Origin: Candidatus Falkowbacteria bacterium
Lineage (GTDB): Bacteria > Patescibacteriota > Patescibacteriia > CAIXNZ01
Assembly (NCBI GenBank): GCA_963774955.1
Contig: CAVZGV010000006.1
Span: 90,855-154,854 of the forward strand
Reading direction: 5' to 3'
DNA: 64,000 nucleotides
A program made the position numbers and the translations under genes. A model generated the notes under the pieces. It ran no database searches. It saw only the letters and a list, made by a program, of their open reading frames with translations, and had not been told where the DNA came from. Of this stretch, positions 31,487-39,881 are shown piece by piece. Within the stretch, counting starts at the first letter, position 1. Each line of letters begins with the position of its first letter.

Positions 31487-33091
31487 TTACCCCCACTCAA
31501 TGGTAGCCGGCGGTTTATCGGATATATTATAAACTACCCTGCCGACTTCCCGAATTTCATTGGTCAAACGGCGAGAAACTACCATAAGAAAGTCATCCGG
31601 CAGTTTAGCCCATCGGGCTGTGAAGCCATTCACACTCCAAATAGCCCATAAAGCTAAAACATAACCGCTATTAGCGTCGTCACCCTTGGTACAAGTGGTT
31701 TCTGATTTGGTTACCACTGCTCCTGCTTGCCAAATACCGTTATAAAGTTGCCATTTATGCAACTCTTCGATGTAAATGGCATCAGCCTGACGAGCAATTG
31801 CTAATTTTTCCGCAGTAATTTCACCTTCAATCCTGACCACCAAACCCGGACCGGGAAAAGGATGACGGGTTAGCAATTCCTCTGGCACATCGATTTCTCG
31901 TCCGATATTGCGGCCGCTGTCTTTGACGCAATCGGCCAAGGGCAAAATTTCCTGAAATTCATCGCTAAATTTCAGATTGACATTGTGATGCAATTTAATT
32001 TGCGCTTTGGTCGCACCCGAAGCATAGCCGCCGCCGCTTTCAGAAATATCAGTGTAGAGAGTGCCCTGCACAATAAAAATTGCACCAAATTTACGGGCTT
32101 CAGCTTCCAGGATGTCTTTGTAAACACTACGCATAGCGACCCGCTTTTCCTTCATCGAGATTTTACCTTTTAAAACTTCCAGAAAACTGTCAGTGGCATC
32201 GACTATCAGCAATTCCAGCCAATCTTCCTGACCGAAATACTTAAGCACGTAAGCCTCATCATCAGGACGATCAATGCCTTTAATGTAAATGGCCCTGATT
32301 TGACAGTATTTACCCTGAACTGCTTCTTTCAGCAAGTAAGCAACAGAGGAAGAGTCTGAACCTCCGGAAAGAGCCAAAAGTACTTTCTGCGAACCGATTT
32401 GCTGACGCAATGACTTGATTTTTTGTTGAGCTACTTTGCCGGCTGGAAATTTGTCATTGGCTTCACAAATTTTAAAGCAGAAATTGGCAAAAATCTGCTG
32501 CCCATATTCTGTCTCAGTTACCTCAGGATGAAATTGTACTCCCCAAAGATGCCTATAGTTACCAGCGGCGACAGGTGCATTATCTGTTTCGGCTAAGACA
32601 ACCAGTTTTTGAGCGATTACTTTGTCGCCATGGCTCTCTAAAACAGGCATGGCTGTCGGGCAATTCAAAAACAATACCGACTGATTTTGAGTCTTAAGAA
32701 CATGAGTGCCAAACTCACGTTTTTTAGAACCGATGACAGAATCACCAAGATGTTTAGCCCAGAGCTGAAAACCCAGGCAAATGCCTAAAATTGGAATGCC
32801 CAAATCAAAAATCTGGCTGTCAAAAGGTGGCGGCTGTTCATAGACTGAAACCGGTCCCCCTGAAAGAATAATGCCCTTGGGGTTTACTTTGCAAACATCT
32901 TCGGCTGTGACGCTGGCTGGATCAGCCACCAGGCAAAAGACACCCAGTTTATCCAAAGCCTGTTTGATTAGATGATCAAACTGGCTGCCAAGCACAAAAA
33001 GCAAAAAGATTTCATGGGTTTGTCTGACTTTCATTTCCTCATTGATTTCAGTCAGCGACTTCTCATCCGCATGTTTCAGGGTATAAAGCAT
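31487..33091 (-). CDS. guaA: GMP synthase (glutamine-hydrolysing)
   Basis: GATase1 (GICLGFQ), PP-loop LALSGGSDSSSVAYLL and a C-terminal ...ATIEWG. Confidence 0.95.
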   Translation of the reverse strand: MLYTLKHADEKSLTEINEEMKVRQTHEIFLLFVLGSQFDHLIKQALDKLGVFCLVADPASVTAEDVCKVNPKGIILSGGPVSVYEQPPPFDSQIFDLGIPILGICLGFQLWAKHLGDSVIGSKKREFGTHVLKTQNQSVLFLNCPTAMPVLESHGDKVIAQKLVVLAETDNAPVAAGNYRHLWGVQFHPEVTETEYGQQIFANFCFKICEANDKFPAGKVAQQKIKSLRQQIGSQKVLLALSGGSDSSSVAYLLKEAVQGKYCQIRAIYIKGIDRPDDEAYVLKYFGQEDWLELLIVDATDSFLEVLKGKISMKEKRVAMRSVYKDILEAEARKFGAIFIVQGTLYTDISESGGGYASGATKAQIKLHHNVNLKFSDEFQEILPLADCVKDSGRNIGREIDVPEELLTRHPFPGPGLVVRIEGEITAEKLAIARQADAIYIEELHKWQLYNGIWQAGAVVTKSETTCTKGDDANSGYVLALWAIWSVNGFTARWAKLPDDFLMVVSRRLTNEIREVGRVVYNISDKPPATIEWG

Positions 33092-36383: not shown

Positions 36384-36477
36384 AATTTCAAGTTATTTTT
36401 AGACTTTCTTTAATTATAGCAAAAATCTTGACAAAGTACTATTTTTCAGCTAACTTATATATATTAAGGGGGTAAAG

Positions 36478-36696
36478 ATGGCCACGAAAAGTAAAAAAAA
36501 CAGGCCTAAAAGTAATGAGTTCAAAAAACCAGGCAAAAAACGGCGTAAATCAAAAAAGGGTTGTTTGCGCTGTGATAAAGATTTTAAATCTCAGGGTATT
36601 TACAACCGGATTTGTCCTGAATGCCGCACCAGCAATGAAAAAGTATCTCCTTATGCCTTGCCGGAAAATTATCCGGTGCATCAACCTGAAAAATAG
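36478..36696 (+). CDS. small lysine-rich zinc-ribbon protein (paralog 1)
   Basis: 72 aa with a basic N-terminus, then KKGCLRCDKDFKSQGIYNRICPECR (CxxC...CxxC). TTGACA promoter at ~36431 and RBS aagggggtaaagATG. Confidence 0.55.
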   Translation: MATKSKKNRPKSNEFKKPGKKRRKSKKGCLRCDKDFKSQGIYNRICPECRTSNEKVSPYALPENYPVHQPEK

Positions 36697-36704
36697 GAGG
36701 AGTT

Positions 36705-36941
36705 ATGCCACGCGGCCGTAAACCGAAAAGAAAAAACTGGGTCGAGAAAAAACAACCTCCCAGCCAAACTTGCCAAAACTGTGGCCGAAAATTCTGGCCC
36801 AAAACCGACAGTGATACCTGCTTATTGTGCTTGAATGGGATCATTAAACCACAGGGTAAAAATATTCCTGTACTCACAGAATTAGACAAGGCTAAACAGG
36901 AAAATCAAAAAGACAAACGCCCCTGCCTGCGTTGTCAAAGG
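36705..36941 (+). pseudogene. small lysine-rich zinc-ribbon protein (paralog 2), 5' part, interrupted by the IS insertion
   Basis: MPRGRKPKRKNW...KRPCLRCQR, then the IS left inverted repeat begins. The ORF-track tail (ELMIFEMNIPAKVIVSVIFA) is read-through into IS sequence. Confidence 0.7.
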
Positions 36942-37998
36942 GGGTATAAGGGGTCCAAACTGGTTGGTGAATTAATGATTTTTGAAATGAATATACCAGC
37001 TAAAGTAATTGTTTCTGTTATCTTTGCTTAATCCTGAATGCTGGCGATACAATCTTTTTAAACGAGAAAAATATCCTTCAAGTTTATTCGTTGATTTGGC
37101 GATATTCGGATTATCTAAATAATGGAACATGTCGGGCAAGGCATGAATTACTAAGCTTCTAGTTCTTTGCAAATCACTAAAGACTTTGTGGTTACAGTCG
37201 AGTCTTGAAACCGCTTTGCCGAATTTTCTTTCCCACTTATGAAAATCTGAAATAAATTTATGTTTTTCCGGATAATTGTTAATGTTTGTTACCGCCAGTA
37301 ATATCTTGCGTAATTGTATCGATGGCTCCAGTTTAGGACGCATTCTTAACCAAGATAATCCCTGCCTCTGGATATGAACGATACAGCGCTGTATTACGAT
37401 ATTCGGCCATGCGTCCTTTAAGGCTCTAATTACGCTAGTATTACCGTCAATTGTAATGGCTGTAGGCTTGATTCCTTTATCTGACAGCTCCTTGAACAGC
37501 TCAAGGGCGGCAAAGTAATTTTCACGCCTTAAATACCTATTTGTGATGATTTGGCCATTGGCATTATTCATTGCCAGCATTAAGCAATTCATGCGGTGGA
37601 AATATGTACCATCAAAAAGCAGATATTTTATTCCGGTTTGTACGTTTAAAGGGCTCGGTAATTTTGCGAGCCAATAACTGATTATTCCCTTAATTGTTTT
37701 CCTGCTGTGGTGGCTAATTCCCGAAATTTGCCTGACTGAATATCCTTCGGCTATCCATAATTTAAACCATTTAAGTTGGCGGTTCAATTTATTCTTTGCA
37801 TTGCGGAAAACAAACAGTCGATTGCACTTCCCGCACTTGAATCTTTGCCGTCCGCAATCATTTTGGCCATAAAAAATTACATTATTAGAGGAGCAATCTG
37901 GACAAGTTTTTTTTCATAATATTGAACCAGTTTAATATTAAGTATCAATTTTAATCTAACCTTAACAGAAATTTTGTCTTTTCACCAACCAGTTTGGG
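36942..37998 (-). mobile_element. IS1595-family-like insertion sequence (1057 bp)
   Basis: 29-bp imperfect terminal inverted repeats (GGTATAAGGGGTCCAAACTGGTTGGTGAA at 36942-36970; reverse complement of 37970-37998 is GGTAAATGGTACCCAAACTGGTTGGTGAA). Flanking 7-bp direct repeat CAAAGGG (36935-36941 and 37999-38005). Single transposase gene inside. Confidence 0.85.
36972..37916 (-). pseudogene. IS transposase: N-terminal zinc ribbon plus DDE domain, with a frame change in an A8 run
   Basis: ATG at 37916, then A8 (37906-37913). Frame +1 continues KKTCPDCSSNNVIFYGQNDCGRQRFKCGKCNRLFVF (IS1/IS1595-type zinc finger) in frame with the 271-aa ORF. C-terminus NKLEGYFSRLKRLYRQHSGLSKDNRNNYFSWYIHFKN resembles the IS1595 DDE tail (N.xEG.wS.LKR...G.yH..S...L..Y..Ef.fryN). 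Confidence 0.8.
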
Positions 37999-38141
37999 TA
38001 CCATTTACCCAAAGGGACTTTGACTCCGAAGGCATATATAATCGCATTTGTCCTGCTTGCCGCGAAACCAACAGCCACAAAGCTGATGATTTCAATGATT
38101 CTGCAGCGGCCGAATCATTATTTAACCGCTGGCAAAGGTAA
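37999..38141 (+). pseudogene. 3' part of zinc-ribbon paralog 2, downstream of the IS
   Basis: Reads DFDSEGIYNRICPACRETNSHKADDFNDSAAAESLFNRWQR*. Joining 36941 to 38006 (removing the IS and one TSD copy) restores an in-frame gene ...CLRCQRDFDSEGIYNRICPACR..., parallel to paralog 1. Confidence 0.7.
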
Positions 38142-38210
38142 GCTCCTCAATTAACTGATTGAGGAGCTTTTTTATTTTTGGTTACAAAAAAGTAAGAACC
38201 GTCAGGCTTA

Positions 38211-39881
38211 TTAATTAACCGATGCAATAGAATTAAGATGCTGCAACTCACCCGCATTAAAAATCAAGACTTCCATTGGTTCCTCCCCTGTCTTAATAAA
38301 ATTATCGGCCTGATCCTTAAAAATGAGTCTGATAGTGTTTGAAGTGTAATTTCGGTAATTGTAATTCCAAAGTTCAACAATATGATCATTTGTTTCCCGA
38401 CGGTCAAAGCCAGTCACCCAATTTTTATGATCAAAGGTCTCGGCAATATAACCGCCGGTTGGATATGATCCCCAATATAAAATTTTACTCTGATAATTTT
38501 TCAAAGTTAACCGCAGATAAGCATTTAAATGTTCTGCGCTGATTTGCTTGTCCGGATAAAATAACTCAATCGCCAGTTCAATGCCATTGCGTAAAACCTG
38601 AGCGCCTTCCAAATTATCAGGCAGGCCAACAAAAAGCAACTTTTGTTCCGATTGATTCAGATTAACTGCCCGTGGTAAATCATGGCGGATAATTTTTTCC
38701 GATAAATCAGCCGCAGTCTGCCAATTATAATTTTTATTGATCAAATTAGCCGTAAAATATAACAACAACAACGCTAAAATAATTTTTCCAGCTATTTTAT
38801 ATCTTTGCAACTGCCAAATCAAAAGACTCAACAAAATACAAAAAATTACCGAGGCCAGATAGACATAGCGCTCCCCCTCATCGCTTAAGTCATTATAATT
38901 CAATAGAAGTACCGGCAGAATTATTATTAAAAAAACGTCAAAGAGCAAAGCAACTTTAAACCCATATTTTTTAAGCGCCAACCAAATTAAACCCATAACT
39001 AACATTAGCACAGAACAAAAAATCAAGGCGTTATACGTAAAAAAGTCCGTTAGATAAACGCGCGCCTGGCCATAGAAGCCTAAATTAACAATTAAAGAAA
39101 CAAACATTTTGAACAGCTTAAACGCATGCAATTGAAATTTTTCCTGGGCATAATAACCGAACGCCAAGCCAATAGCATTATATCTGACAAAAAAATAACC
39201 AATAACCAAGGCCCAATAACCAAATGGCTTTAATATTATATCCTGCCAGCGGAATTTATTAACCGTAATTGCTTCATACAATTCCCAAACTACGATTAAC
39301 AGCGGCAAAGTGATTACAAATTCCTTAGTTAACAAACCGACAATAAAGCTAGCCACGGAAATCAAAAGCCAGGAAAATTTCAATTTTTGCCTGAACAAGA
39401 TATAACCGTAAAACGCCAATAAGTAAAAAAAAGTTGCCATGGGATCAGCCACGGCCGCAATCCAGATCACGGCTTCGGAGTGATTGGGCAAAAGACTGAA
39501 AAATAAGGCCGCTAAAATCCCGATTTTTTGTTTATGTTCAGATTGTTCAAACAAAAGTAAAACCAGCAAATAAACCAAGAAGCAAACGCCGATATGAAAT
39601 ATTAAATTAGTCAGATGATAAGGTAAGGGATTCAAACCACCAATTTGATAGTTAAGCCAGAAAACCACATTAACCATGGGCCTGTAACTGCCGCCCACGC
39701 CCTGCTCACCATAGTAATTGGCTGTAAAATAGTCTCCCAGGCTATGCTGGCTGGTCTGGGTATTATATAGCCAGTCAAAGTCGTCGGACACGAAAAAATC
39801 GTTCAGATTAACAAAATAAAGGCCTAAATTAATGACAATAAGACCTAAGAGTACCCAAAGATGGATTTTGTTGAATTTCAT
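38211..39881 (-). CDS. large polytopic membrane protein, possible GT-C-type glycosyltransferase (PMT/ArnT-like)
   Basis: 556 aa with >10 TM helices and an acidic first loop (NLNDFFVSDDFDW). Family is inferred; no SD sequence upstream. Confidence 0.45.
   Translation of the reverse strand: MKFNKIHLWVLLGLIVINLGLYFVNLNDFFVSDDFDWLYNTQTSQHSLGDYFTANYYGEQGVGGSYRPMVNVVFWLNYQIGGLNPLPYHLTNLIFHIGVCFLVYLLVLLLFEQSEHKQKIGILAALFFSLLPNHSEAVIWIAAVADPMATFFYLLAFYGYILFRQKLKFSWLLISVASFIVGLLTKEFVITLPLLIVVWELYEAITVNKFRWQDIILKPFGYWALVIGYFFVRYNAIGLAFGYYAQEKFQLHAFKLFKMFVSLIVNLGFYGQARVYLTDFFTYNALIFCSVLMLVMGLIWLALKKYGFKVALLFDVFLIIILPVLLLNYNDLSDEGERYVYLASVIFCILLSLLIWQLQRYKIAGKIILALLLLYFTANLINKNYNWQTAADLSEKIIRHDLPRAVNLNQSEQKLLFVGLPDNLEGAQVLRNGIELAIELFYPDKQISAEHLNAYLRLTLKNYQSKILYWGSYPTGGYIAETFDHKNWVTGFDRRETNDHIVELWNYNYRNYTSNTIRLIFKDQADNFIKTGEEPMEVLIFNAGELQHLNSIASVN

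What the first reader, a model, noticed from the sequence alone, without database searches (positions are those of the whole stretch)
36935..38005. Complete IS1595-like insertion sequence with 29-bp inverted repeats, 7-bp target duplication and a transposase split at an A8 run
The terminal inverted repeats are read directly: GGTATAAGGGGTCCAAACTGGTTGGTGAA at 36942-36970, and its near reverse complement at 37970-37998. Both ends are flanked by CAAAGGG (36935-36941 and 37999-38005). The single internal gene encodes an N-terminal zinc ribbon and a DDE-type C-terminus, which resemble IS1595/ISXO2-like transposases. The ATG at 37916 and the zinc-ribbon/DDE frame are offset by one base, exactly at an A8 homopolymer (37906-37913). 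That is either a slippery site (programmed frameshift, as in IS1) or a homopolymer sequencing error. Removing the element in silico restores the host gene in frame, so the insertion is probably recent.
Basis: partly seen in the sequence, partly recalled or inferred. Interest (0 to 1): 0.6.

Follow-up and report, generated by a model that had tools for sequence, protein, structure and literature searches.

The report
IS256-type insertion sequence with conserved slippery start
This is a complete, recently inserted jumping gene of the IS256/IS1249 kind (not IS1595), and the one-base frame break at a run of eight A's just after its start codon is conserved across dozens of diverged relatives, so it is most likely a built-in throttle on transposase production, not an error.

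Summary
The element spans 36942-38010 (1069 bp). It has 29-30 bp imperfect inverted repeats, a CAAAGGG direct repeat, and one minus-strand transposase gene. Removing it restores a host zinc-ribbon gene; uninterrupted homologues read through the junction. The IS1595 assignment is wrong. HMMs, a PDB profile search and a high-confidence AlphaFold model all point to the IS256/Mutator superfamily, closest to IS1249 and NCBI's 'IS256 Zn-binding variant', though below both curated cut-offs. The ATG/A8 frame break is neither a sequencing error nor a private mutation. Of 74 distinct 5' regions from relatives (41-93% aa identity), 68 have the ATG one base out of frame; 60 of those have exactly A8, and a TGA overlaps the ATG. 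Synonymous codon choice is skewed to keep the run pure. I found no in-frame DNA variant with an altered run length. The likeliest mechanism is RNA-polymerase slippage that drops one A, as shown experimentally for IS1447. The rivals are +1 ribosomal frameshifting and DNA-level phase variation. Side findings are a palindromic target preference (STC-N5-GAS) and a conserved palindrome abutting the ATG. I rate it a new variant of a known kind.

The parts
36942..38010 (-). Whole insertion sequence, 1069 bp with GGG...CCC ends (1067 bp, 36943-38009, if the ends are GG...CC). It is the only copy in the window.
   Evidence: Relatives are 1056-1095 bp and have the same end sequences.
36937..36941 (.). 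Left copy of the target duplication, AAAGG. The apparent 7-bp repeat CAAAGGG is at 36936-36942.
38011..38015 (.). Right copy of the target duplication, AAAGG. The apparent 7-bp repeat CAAAGGG is at 38010-38016.
36942..36971 (.). Terminal inverted repeat at the 3' end of the transposase gene. The stop codon TAA (36972-36974) abuts it.
   Evidence: pair I1, 30 nt, 83% complementary; 24 of 29 matching.
37981..38010 (.). Terminal inverted repeat at the 5' (promoter-proximal) end of the transposase gene.
37915..37917 (-). Conserved ATG start codon, one base out of frame with the transposase ORF. The TGA at 37914-37916 closes the transposase frame just upstream.
   Evidence: ATG in 60 of 60 and the overlapping TGA in 59 of 60 distinct relatives.
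37907..37914 (-). A8 run (T8 on the + strand), the proposed slippage site.
37885..37917 (-). Zero-frame ORF read from the ATG without recoding: MKKNLSRLLL plus stop. It is not conserved in relatives, where it is 6-38 aa.
36972..37913 (-). Transposase reading frame, residues 2-314 plus stop. It contains a zinc ribbon (CxxC...CxxC), a helical DNA-binding segment and a DDE RNase-H-like core (D102, D157, E280, K287).
37918..37939 (-). Conserved AT-rich palindrome, AATATTAAAC-TG-GTTCAATATT on the gene strand, directly 5' of the ATG. Its function is not established.
36705..36941 (+). 5' part of the interrupted host gene, which encodes a small zinc-ribbon protein.
38016..38141 (+). 3' part of the interrupted host gene.

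Best explanation
This is a complete and probably still active insertion sequence of the IS256/Mutator superfamily. It belongs to an unnamed IS1249-like clade with an N-terminal zinc ribbon that is common in Patescibacteria (CPR) metagenomes. It recently inserted into a small host zinc-ribbon gene at a site that fits the family's palindromic target preference (STC-N5-GAS).

Its transposase cannot be made by standard decoding. The only start codon is one base out of frame with the zinc-ribbon/DDE ORF, and the two frames meet at an A8 run that occupies codons 2-4. I infer that RNA polymerase slips on the A8/T8 tract. A minority of transcripts then carry A7 (one A lost), or less often A10, and these place the ATG in frame and encode MKKTC... 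Unslipped transcripts yield only a short junk peptide. The arrangement therefore acts as a built-in throttle on transposase level.

Shown: the anatomy of the element, the family assignment, the restoration of the host gene, and the conservation of the ATG/A8/+1 arrangement together with its nucleotide-level constraint. Inferred: that the frame correction happens at the transcription step, and that the upstream palindrome has any part in it.
For: Family assignment:
- Pfam Transposase_mut scores above its gathering threshold.
- The best NCBIfam hits are IS1249 (158 bits) and IS256_Zn_var (129 bits).
- A PDB profile search hits the ISCth4 transposase at E = 8e-9.
- The AlphaFold model has pLDDT 91.9, and its top five fold matches are all ISCth4, with E down to 1e-8 and TM 0.58 for the best match.
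- D102, D157, E280 and K287 are invariant in the alignment.

Conservation of the recoding site:
- 68 of 74 distinct 5' regions in the clade have the +1 offset, and 60 of those have A8.
- Positions 4-11 after the ATG are A in 59-60 of 60 sequences, and a TGA overlaps the ATG in 59 of 60.
- Both Lys codons are always AAA, against 64% AAA elsewhere in the ORFs.
- Residue 4 varies (S, T, R, K), yet its codon begins with A in 59 of 60. Ser is AGY in 39 of 39 cases, against 39% elsewhere.
- Third-codon-position entropy (1.34, against 0.80 and 0.78 for positions 1 and 2) shows that the zinc-ribbon frame is the one under protein-level selection from the first Cys onward.
- The same arrangement occurs in a finished isolate genome, on two Emticicia plasmids.

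Against a DNA-level switch or an error: no A7 or A10 in-frame DNA variant appears among the 74 loci, among about 138 listed cluster members, or in a search with the conceptual in-frame protein.

Identity of the productive form: an in-frame relative with a broken run, ATG AGA AAA ACT TGT (MRKTC), has the same length as the product expected after loss of one A.

Precedent: in IS1447 an A-run that follows a stem-loop gives about 16% slippage in each direction, only the transcripts that lose one A encode full-length transposase, and at least 7 As are needed (PMC6211511). In Roseiflexus IS630 a hairpin stimulates a one-nucleotide deletion during transcription (PMC5009743). Programmed transcriptional realignment is reported at A runs longer than 7 (PMC3711429).
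Against: There are no RNA data, so the step at which the frame is corrected is not observed. The literature I read describes extra As at the T. thermophilus dnaX run, whereas this element needs the loss of one A or the gain of two. The upstream palindrome is A-U only, has a central A-C mismatch in 30 of 39 sequences, folds at only about -2 to -5 kcal/mol, and is not predicted by RNAalifold. It is therefore a weak candidate for a stimulatory hairpin and may be a DNA site. No promoter was identified. A small clade that is in frame (the MVxENDEKK clade) also keeps an A8 run, so the run is not tied exclusively to the out-of-frame arrangement.
Confidence: 0.6

Rival explanations
1. +1 ribosomal frameshifting. 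The mRNA is faithful (A8). Lys-tRNA in the P site slips one base forward on AAA AAA A during the first elongation cycles and enters the transposase frame.
For: The frame relation (+1) and the perfect re-pairing of tRNA-Lys on AAA-A fit this model. Poly-A tracts are known to shift at the transcription, translation or replication level (PMC3711429; PMC5009743).
Against: No feature that usually drives efficient +1 shifting is present. The next zero-frame codon is an ordinary AAG or AAC, not a stop or a rare codon, and there is no upstream SD-like stimulator. A +1 shift needs only four As, yet all eight are conserved, including the first base of a variable codon. That fits a mechanism that depends on run length.
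Confidence: 0.2
2. DNA-level phase variation. A8 is an OFF allele, and rare replication slippage to A7 or A10 switches individual copies ON.
For: Homopolymers just after a start codon are the classic design of phase-variable genes (PMC3711429). Distant Bacteroidota relatives show a mixture of in-frame and out-of-frame copies.
Against: In the window's clade, no ON allele appears among 74 distinct 5' regions, among about 138 listed cluster members, or among the 120 best clusters returned for the conceptual ON protein. The in-frame Bacteroidota copies differ from the out-of-frame ones by more than run length: the ATG lies 24 nt before the first Cys codon in the in-frame copies but 13-23 nt before it in the others, and the runs are interrupted.
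Confidence: 0.08
3. The zinc ribbon is not translated. The active protein starts at an internal codon, for example the TTG at 37787 (271 aa), and the ATG/A8 region is only a leader.
For: Gene callers and RefSeq annotate such truncated ORFs.
Against: The internal start is not conserved. It is a TTG after the first Cys in some clades, a GTG or ATG further downstream in others, and residue 44 in the window. The CxxC...CxxC motif and the codon-position pattern show protein-level selection from the first Cys onward. In-frame relatives, including IS1249 itself, encode the whole ribbon.
Confidence: 0.05
4. Homopolymer sequencing or assembly error, or a private inactivating mutation that makes this copy a pseudogene.
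For: Taken alone, a one-base offset at a homopolymer looks like an error.
Against: The same A8 and the same offset occur in about 60 independent contigs from different studies, with 7-59% amino-acid divergence, and in a finished isolate genome. The rest of the ORF is intact and under purifying selection.
Confidence: 0.02

Closest known systems
IS1249 (Corynebacterium; the IS1249 group of the IS256 family)
   Same: The alignment is collinear over residues 1-314, with an N-terminal four-Cys zinc ribbon followed by a Mutator-type DDE core. It is the best NCBIfam hit.
   Different: Identity is only 24%, and the score is 158 bits against a cut-off of 300. IS1249 encodes 392 aa and has a plain in-frame start with no A run. 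The window element is shorter (1069 bp, 314 aa) and needs recoding.
NCBIfam NF048019, 'IS256 family transposase, variant Zn-binding type'
   Same: The match is full length (residues 8-310 against model positions 3-300 of 304) and the architecture is the same.
   Different: The score is 129 bits against a cut-off of 150, so this is a neighbouring clade and not a member by the curated threshold.
ISCth4 / IS256 proper (solved transpososome structures 6xg8, 6xgw, 6xgx)
   Same: The catalytic fold and the alpha-helical insertion domain are the same, and ISCth4 is the top structural match. By homology this suggests copy-out/paste-in chemistry; I did not test that.
   Different: The N-terminal DNA-binding region is different. 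NF033543 scores 53 bits against a cut-off of 150.
IS1447 (IS3 family) programmed transcriptional slippage
   Same: An A-run preceded by a stem-loop, with loss of one A from the transcript required for full-length transposase, and at least 7 As sufficient (PMC6211511).
   Different: It belongs to a different IS family. The IS1447 site lies between two substantial ORFs, so an OrfA protein is also made. Here the site is at codons 2-4 and the unshifted product is a junk peptide. The stem here is much weaker.
Roseiflexus IS630 hairpin-dependent slippage
   Same: A one-nucleotide deletion during transcription is obligatory for transposase synthesis, and an inverted repeat lies immediately 5' of the slippery motif (PMC5009743).
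   Different: That motif is heteropolymeric (T5C5) and its hairpin is GC-rich and stable. Here the motif is a homopolymer and the palindrome is A-U only.
   Same: The N-terminal zinc ribbon plus helix-turn-helix resembles InsA (NF033558, E = 3e-8 over residues 5-78; PF03811). An A-run is used for recoding.
   Different: IS1 shifts in the -1 direction between two functional ORFs and has a different catalytic domain.

Membership tests
IS1595 / ISXO2-like | An IS1595-type DDE catalytic domain (NF033547 or Pfam DDE_Tnp_IS1595) | tested here: not met
   NF033547 has E = 0.006 and scores 16 bits against a cut-off of 75, covering only residues 273-312. DDE_Tnp_IS1595 does not appear among the Pfam hits.
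IS1595 / ISXO2-like | An N-terminal IS1595 zinc ribbon (PF12760) | tested here: inconclusive
   E = 0.18, 12 bits against a cut-off of 25. The generic IS1/IS1595 zinc model NF050000 scores 27.3 bits against a cut-off of 28.
IS256 / Mutator superfamily | A Transposase_mut (PF00872) catalytic domain | tested here: met
   32.5 bits against a gathering score of 21. The profile hits ISCth4 at E = 8e-9.
IS256 / Mutator superfamily | An RNase-H-like fold with an alpha-helical insertion, as in ISCth4 | tested here: met
   The model has pLDDT 91.9. The top five Foldseek matches are ISCth4 chains, with E down to 1e-8 and TM 0.58 for the best match.
IS256 / Mutator superfamily | A conserved D, D, E triad with a basic residue seven positions after the E | tested here: met
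   D102, D157, E280 and K287 are invariant in the 35-sequence alignment. That they are the catalytic residues is inferred from their positions.
IS256 proper | The NF033543 equivalog score | tested here: not met
   53 bits against a cut-off of 150.
IS256 proper | A target duplication of 8-9 bp (recalled from ISfinder) | tested here: not met
   The duplication is 5-7 bp in the window and in 16 other clean insertions.
IS1249 group | The NF033544 score | tested here: not met
   157.6 bits against a cut-off of 300. It is the best hit and is collinear, with 24% identity to IS1249.
IS256 Zn-binding variant (NF048019) | The NF048019 equivalog score | tested here: not met
   128.9 bits against a cut-off of 150, a full-length match. 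The N-terminal model NF048018 scores 25 bits against a cut-off of 27.
Programmed transcriptional realignment in IS elements | A homopolymer of at least 7-8 A or T exactly where the two frames meet | tested here: met
   An A8 run at codons 2-4.
Programmed transcriptional realignment in IS elements | The run and the frame offset are conserved across diverged members beyond what coding requires | tested here: met
   68 of 74 have the +1 offset. Codon choice is biased towards AAA and AGY. No in-frame alleles with altered run length were found.
Programmed transcriptional realignment in IS elements | A heterogeneous mRNA population with inserted or deleted As | not testable with these tools
   No RNA reads are available.
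Programmed transcriptional realignment in IS elements | A stimulatory nascent-RNA hairpin 5' of the run (present in IS1447 and Roseiflexus IS630, not universal) | tested here: inconclusive
   The palindrome is 86% paired against 33-50% in the slid controls, and 4 pairs show compensatory changes. However, it is A-U only, has a central A-C mismatch, and RNAalifold predicts no structure.
IS1-type -1 programmed ribosomal frameshift | A -1 shift between two functional ORFs (InsA and InsB) | tested here: not met
   The correction needed is +1. The zero-frame product is a non-conserved peptide of 6-38 aa.

The most novel reading that the evidence does not exclude
A large, unnamed clade of IS256-superfamily elements that is abundant in CPR/Patescibacteria and present in Bacteroidota makes transposase only through an obligatory recoding event placed immediately after the start codon. 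In this reading, slippage on A8 removes one A and may be assisted by the adjacent conserved palindrome. It acts purely as an expression throttle and yields no second protein. It is invisible to frameshift-finding pipelines, which skip the first ~50 nt of a gene, and to RefSeq/PGAP, which annotates truncated transposases. The same clade has a strict palindromic target preference, STC-N5-GAS.
Probability: 0.5. Interest if true: 0.65.

Novelty: new variant of a known kind. Interest (0 to 1): 0.55.

Why it matters
First, hundreds of database entries for this transposase clade are annotated as N-terminally truncated proteins that lack their DNA-binding zinc ribbon. Recognising the recoding site would correct them.

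Second, it would extend programmed slippage to the IS256 superfamily. I found no report of this in the searchable literature, and from memory ISfinder lists none.

Third, it would be an unusually clean natural example of recoding used only to set expression level. The site is at codons 2-4 and there is no upstream protein product. That makes it a convenient system for separating transcriptional from translational slippage.

Fourth, surveys such as GeneTack miss frameshifts within about 50 nt of the start codon, so similar start-proximal signals may be under-counted more generally.

Fifth, this IS is a candidate active element in CPR bacteria, whose mobile elements are little characterised. Its defined target motif could be useful for genetics in these organisms.

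Tried and rejected
- IS1595 membership: rejected by the HMM scores.
- Pentatricopeptide-repeat hits in the PDB searches: rejected as an artefact. A single ~22-residue helix motif (ALELFKELSDKGIKP) matches every repeat of designer PPR proteins, and no single stretch is significant.
- Known RNA families: Rfam found nothing above E = 0.8 in 36400-38500.
- Sigma-70 promoter scan: no site upstream of the transposase start, and the number of hits equals the shuffled expectation.
- Further copies or fragments in the window: none. The GGGTATAAAG-like motifs at 33079 and 19848 lack the inverted-repeat core and are chance matches.
- UGA-as-sense genetic code: rejected. Table 11 gives 79% coding density, and a TAA with no intervening start codon lies six codons upstream in any case.
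- Co-variation between the core of the terminal repeats and the core of the internal palindrome: looked for by eye across 44 elements and not convincing, so not claimed.
- Exact look-ups of the window's own proteins in the contig index failed, so the rest of the host genome could not be scanned for copies. Cluster data show only near-identical copies on contigs of 294, 455 and 565 kb.
- The alternative internal start codon as the real start: rejected because it is not conserved.
Full report
**1. Observation**

- The 29-nt arm GGTATAAGGGGTCCAAACTGGTTGGTGAA is at 36943-36971. Its imperfect reverse complement is at 37981-38009. The arms match at 24 of 29 positions and the inner 17 bp are exact.
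- That 17-mer occurs only at these two places in the 64-kb window. At up to 3 mismatches, 0.22 matches are expected by chance.
- CAAAGGG flanks both ends, at 36936-36942 and 38010-38016.
- On the minus strand an ATG (37917-37915) is followed by eight As (37914-37907). Read from the ATG, the frame gives MKKNLSRLLL and a stop.
- The long ORF (to 36972, stop included) is in the +1 frame, and a TGA overlapping the ATG closes it just upstream.
- There is no second copy or fragment in the window.

**2. Host gene and age of the insertion**

Removing the element and one repeat copy joins 36705-36941 to 38016-38141 and produces a 120-aa ORF. Its junction reads CLRCQRDFDSEGIYNRICPACR. The neighbouring gene at 36478-36696 carries the same motif (CLRCDKDFKSQGIYNRICPECR).

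A database search returned three relevant proteins:
- P0130 is the window's own truncated product, from a 294-kb NCBI MAG contig.
- P0131 is an uninterrupted homologue that reads straight through the junction (CLRCQKEFDSDGIYNRIC).
- P0132, from Candidatus Buchananbacteria, does the same (CLRCLKEFESAGIYNRIC).

The insertion is therefore real, the duplication is perfect, and the host is a Patescibacteria (CPR) bacterium. Transposase fragments identical to the window copy, or differing from it by one residue, occur on NCBI contigs of 294, 455 and 565 kb. That is consistent with recent activity. I could not tell whether these contigs belong to one genome.

**3. Family**

The IS1595 assignment fails.
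- NF033547 scores 16 bits against a cut-off of 75 and covers only the last 40 residues.
- The IS1595 DDE Pfam family does not appear.
- PF12760 has E = 0.18.

The evidence points to the IS256/Mutator superfamily.
- The best NCBIfam matches are IS1249 (NF033544, 158 bits, cut-off 300) and 'IS256 family transposase, variant Zn-binding type' (NF048019, 129 bits, cut-off 150). Both matches are full length.
- Pfam Transposase_mut passes its threshold (32.5 against 21).
- A profile built from 35 relatives hits only one genuine solved protein, the IS256-family ISCth4 transposase (E = 8e-9).
- The many pentatricopeptide hits are an artefact of one short helix motif summed over designer repeats.
- An AlphaFold model is confident (pLDDT 91.9, pTM 0.80). 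Its top five structural matches are ISCth4 chains, with E down to 1e-8 and TM 0.58 for the best match. Retroviral integrases follow.
- D102, D157, E280 and K287 (seven residues after the E) are invariant.
- The prototype IS1249 on Corynebacterium plasmids aligns collinearly at 24% identity.
- The N-terminal 75 residues also resemble IS1 InsA, with a zinc ribbon plus helix-turn-helix.

The element is thus a member of the IS256 superfamily. It sits nearest the IS1249 and Zn-variant groups but falls below every curated subgroup threshold.

**4. The frame break is conserved**

I collected DNA for relatives from a genome scan, a metagenome scan and exact-protein look-ups.

*Frame state.* Among 74 distinct 5' regions of the window's clade (41-93% aa identity), 68 have the nearest ATG one base out of frame (+1 offset). 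Of these, 60 have A8, seven have A7 and one has A6. Three have a -1 offset, two are in frame and one is unclear.

*Nucleotide-level constraint.* In the 60 sequences with the ATG 13 nt before the first Cys codon:
- Positions 4-11 are A in 59-60 of 60, and a TGA overlaps the ATG in 59 of 60.
- Both Lys codons are always AAA, against 64% AAA elsewhere in the same ORFs.
- The next residue varies (S, T, R, K), yet its codon starts with A in 59 of 60.
- Ser at that position is AGY in 39 of 39 cases, against 39% elsewhere.

*Which frame is translated.*
- Downstream, both Cys codons show synonymous TGT/TGC variation.
- Third-position entropy (1.34) exceeds that of positions 1 and 2 (0.80 and 0.78), so the zinc-ribbon frame is under protein-level selection from its first Cys.
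- The ATG frame gives peptides of 6-38 aa with no conservation.
- There is no alternative start in the transposase frame before the first Cys, and the internal starts chosen by gene callers differ between clades.

*Other genomes.* The same ATG...A8 arrangement with a +1 offset occurs in a finished isolate genome, on two Emticicia oligotrophica plasmids. RefSeq annotates it there as a truncated 287-aa 'transposase'. Distant Bacteroidota relatives are mixed: 8 at +1, 2 at -1 and 8 in frame. GC-rich IS1249 itself has a plain in-frame start.

**5. What this excludes**

- *Sequencing error or a private mutation* is excluded by recurrence in independent, diverged contigs and in an isolate genome.
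- *A UGA-sense code* is excluded. Table 11 gives 79% coding density, and a TAA lies six codons upstream with no start codon between.
- *DNA-level phase variation* predicts in-frame alleles (A7 or A10) in populations. None appears among the 74 loci or among about 138 listed members of the ten largest clusters. The three members of unusual length are C-terminal variants or a TGA-to-TGG read-through. None appears among the 120 best clusters returned when I searched with the conceptual in-frame protein of the most abundant subfamily; all full-length hits are 311 aa and lack MKKSC.

**6. Mechanism**

The frame is corrected by the loss of one base, by the gain of two, or by a +1 ribosomal shift. I favour RNA-polymerase slippage on the A8/T8 tract, for four reasons.
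- All eight As are constrained, including one in a variable codon. That fits a mechanism dependent on run length. It does not fit tRNA slippage, which needs only four As.
- No usual stimulator of +1 ribosomal shifting is present. The next zero-frame codon is an ordinary AAG or AAC, and there is no SD-like element.
- There is direct experimental precedent. In IS1447 (IS3 family), an A-run that follows a stem-loop slips in both directions at about 16% each, only the transcripts that lose one A give full-length transposase, and seven As suffice (PMC6211511). Roseiflexus IS630 needs a hairpin-stimulated one-nucleotide deletion (PMC5009743). Programmed transcriptional realignment is reported at A runs longer than 7, and an A7 run gave about 10% frameshifting in a magnesium-chelatase reporter cassette tested in E. 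coli (PMC3711429).
- An in-frame relative with a broken run, ATG AGA AAA ACT TGT (MRKTC; L115), has exactly the length of the product expected after the loss of one A (MKKTC).

The site lies at codons 2-4, so no upstream protein is produced. Functionally the arrangement can only lower and set the transposase level. This step is inferred, because no RNA data were available.

**7. The upstream palindrome**

AATATTAAAC-NN-GTTYAATATT ends 0-3 nt before the ATG in most members.
- For structure: it is 86% paired against 33-50% in the slid controls. Four pairs show changes on both sides. None of 500 shuffles reached the observed covariation score.
- Against a stable RNA hairpin: it is A-U only and has a central A-C mismatch in 30 of 39 sequences, which would be G-U on the antisense strand. 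It folds at about -2 to -5 kcal/mol, and RNAalifold predicts nothing.

It may be a weak nascent-RNA stimulator like those of IS1447 and IS630. It may instead be a DNA-level site such as an operator, a promoter element or a transposase-binding site. I leave this open.

**8. Ends and target**

Across the family the ends read GGG(T/C)(A/G)(T/A).... In 17 independent insertions with a clean duplication, including the window's, the reconstructed target is S-T-C | N5 | G-A-S, with T, C, G and A invariant. The window's site is GTC-CCTTT-GAC on the transposase strand.

Because the target supplies a C and a G next to G/C-rich ends, every insertion shows an apparent 7-bp repeat. The real staggered cut could be 5 or 7 bp. 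Either value is shorter than the 8-9 bp I recall for IS256.

Many insertions lie in TGTCATTNCGAGC-like repeats. In L116 two copies bracket a GIY-YIG gene.

**9. Comparison with what is known, and novelty**

- Membership: IS256/Mutator superfamily, met. IS256 proper, IS1249 and the Zn-variant equivalogs, not met at the curated thresholds. IS1595, not met.
- Mechanism: it resembles IS1447 and Roseiflexus IS630. It differs in family, in the position of the site immediately after the start codon, and in the absence of a second protein.
- Literature: I found no paper in the searchable library linking IS256 or IS1249 elements with programmed slippage. GeneTack explicitly misses frameshifts within about 50 nt of the start codon. 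ISfinder could not be queried.
- Rating: a new variant of a known kind, of moderate interest (0.55).

**10. Confidence**

- Complete IS of the IS256 superfamily and not IS1595: about 0.95.
- Conserved, functional recoding and not an error or decay: about 0.9.
- Transcriptional slippage as the mechanism: about 0.6.
- +1 ribosomal frameshifting: about 0.2.
- DNA-level phase variation: about 0.08.
- Internal start: about 0.05.
- Sequencing error or pseudogene: about 0.02.

Noticed in passing
window 36934-36941 and 38011-38018; loci L028-L097: The IS family has a strict palindromic target preference, S-T-C | N5 | G-A-S. T, C, G and A are invariant in 17 independent clean insertions. This makes the duplication length (5 or 7 bp) ambiguous.
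   Followed up: partly
L116:49-1116 and from L116:1639; flanks of many loci: Many insertions sit in TGTCATTNCGAGC-type repeats. In L116 two copies in the same orientation bracket a 151-aa GIY-YIG gene. This suggests the IS targets a repeat associated with GIY-YIG genes, or that the two copies form a composite unit.
   Followed up: no
window 36478-36696 and 36705-36941 + 38016-38141: These are tandem paralogous small basic proteins that share the motif CLRCxxxFxSxGIYNRICxxCR. They have no significant Pfam family; the only hit is a sub-threshold 'double zinc ribbon' match. The only homologues found are in CPR bacteria such as Candidatus Buchananbacteria. They appear to be an uncharacterised zinc-ribbon family.
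   Followed up: partly
L112 (Emticicia oligotrophica plasmid NC_018742.1, 19038-19985), and NC_018749.1: RefSeq annotates a 287-aa 'transposase' that starts 84 nt inside the homologous region and omits the zinc ribbon. The upstream ATG and A8 run have the same +1 offset. This looks like systematic mis-annotation of the clade.
   Followed up: partly
L100, L113, L114: A subclade is in frame from an upstream ATG (MVxENDEKKxCPxC) but keeps an A8 run and an out-of-frame ATG just before it. It may be an evolutionary intermediate, or slippage may lower expression in this subclade.
   Followed up: no
L059: One relative has A9 in place of A8, which gives a -1 offset. It is the only run-length variant seen in the main clade, and it is also out of frame.
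   Followed up: no
transposase residues about 126-157 (window about 37447-37542): The helix motif ALELFKELSDKGIKP gives spuriously strong hits to designer pentatricopeptide-repeat proteins, and some database sources even name relatives 'pentatricopeptide repeat protein'. This is an annotation trap.
   Followed up: yes
window 38140-38169: A perfect 12-bp stem (13 pairs in the scan) followed by a T-run lies between the convergent host zinc-ribbon gene and the 556-aa PMT_2-like membrane protein gene (38211-39881, minus strand). It is probably a bidirectional terminator.
   Followed up: no
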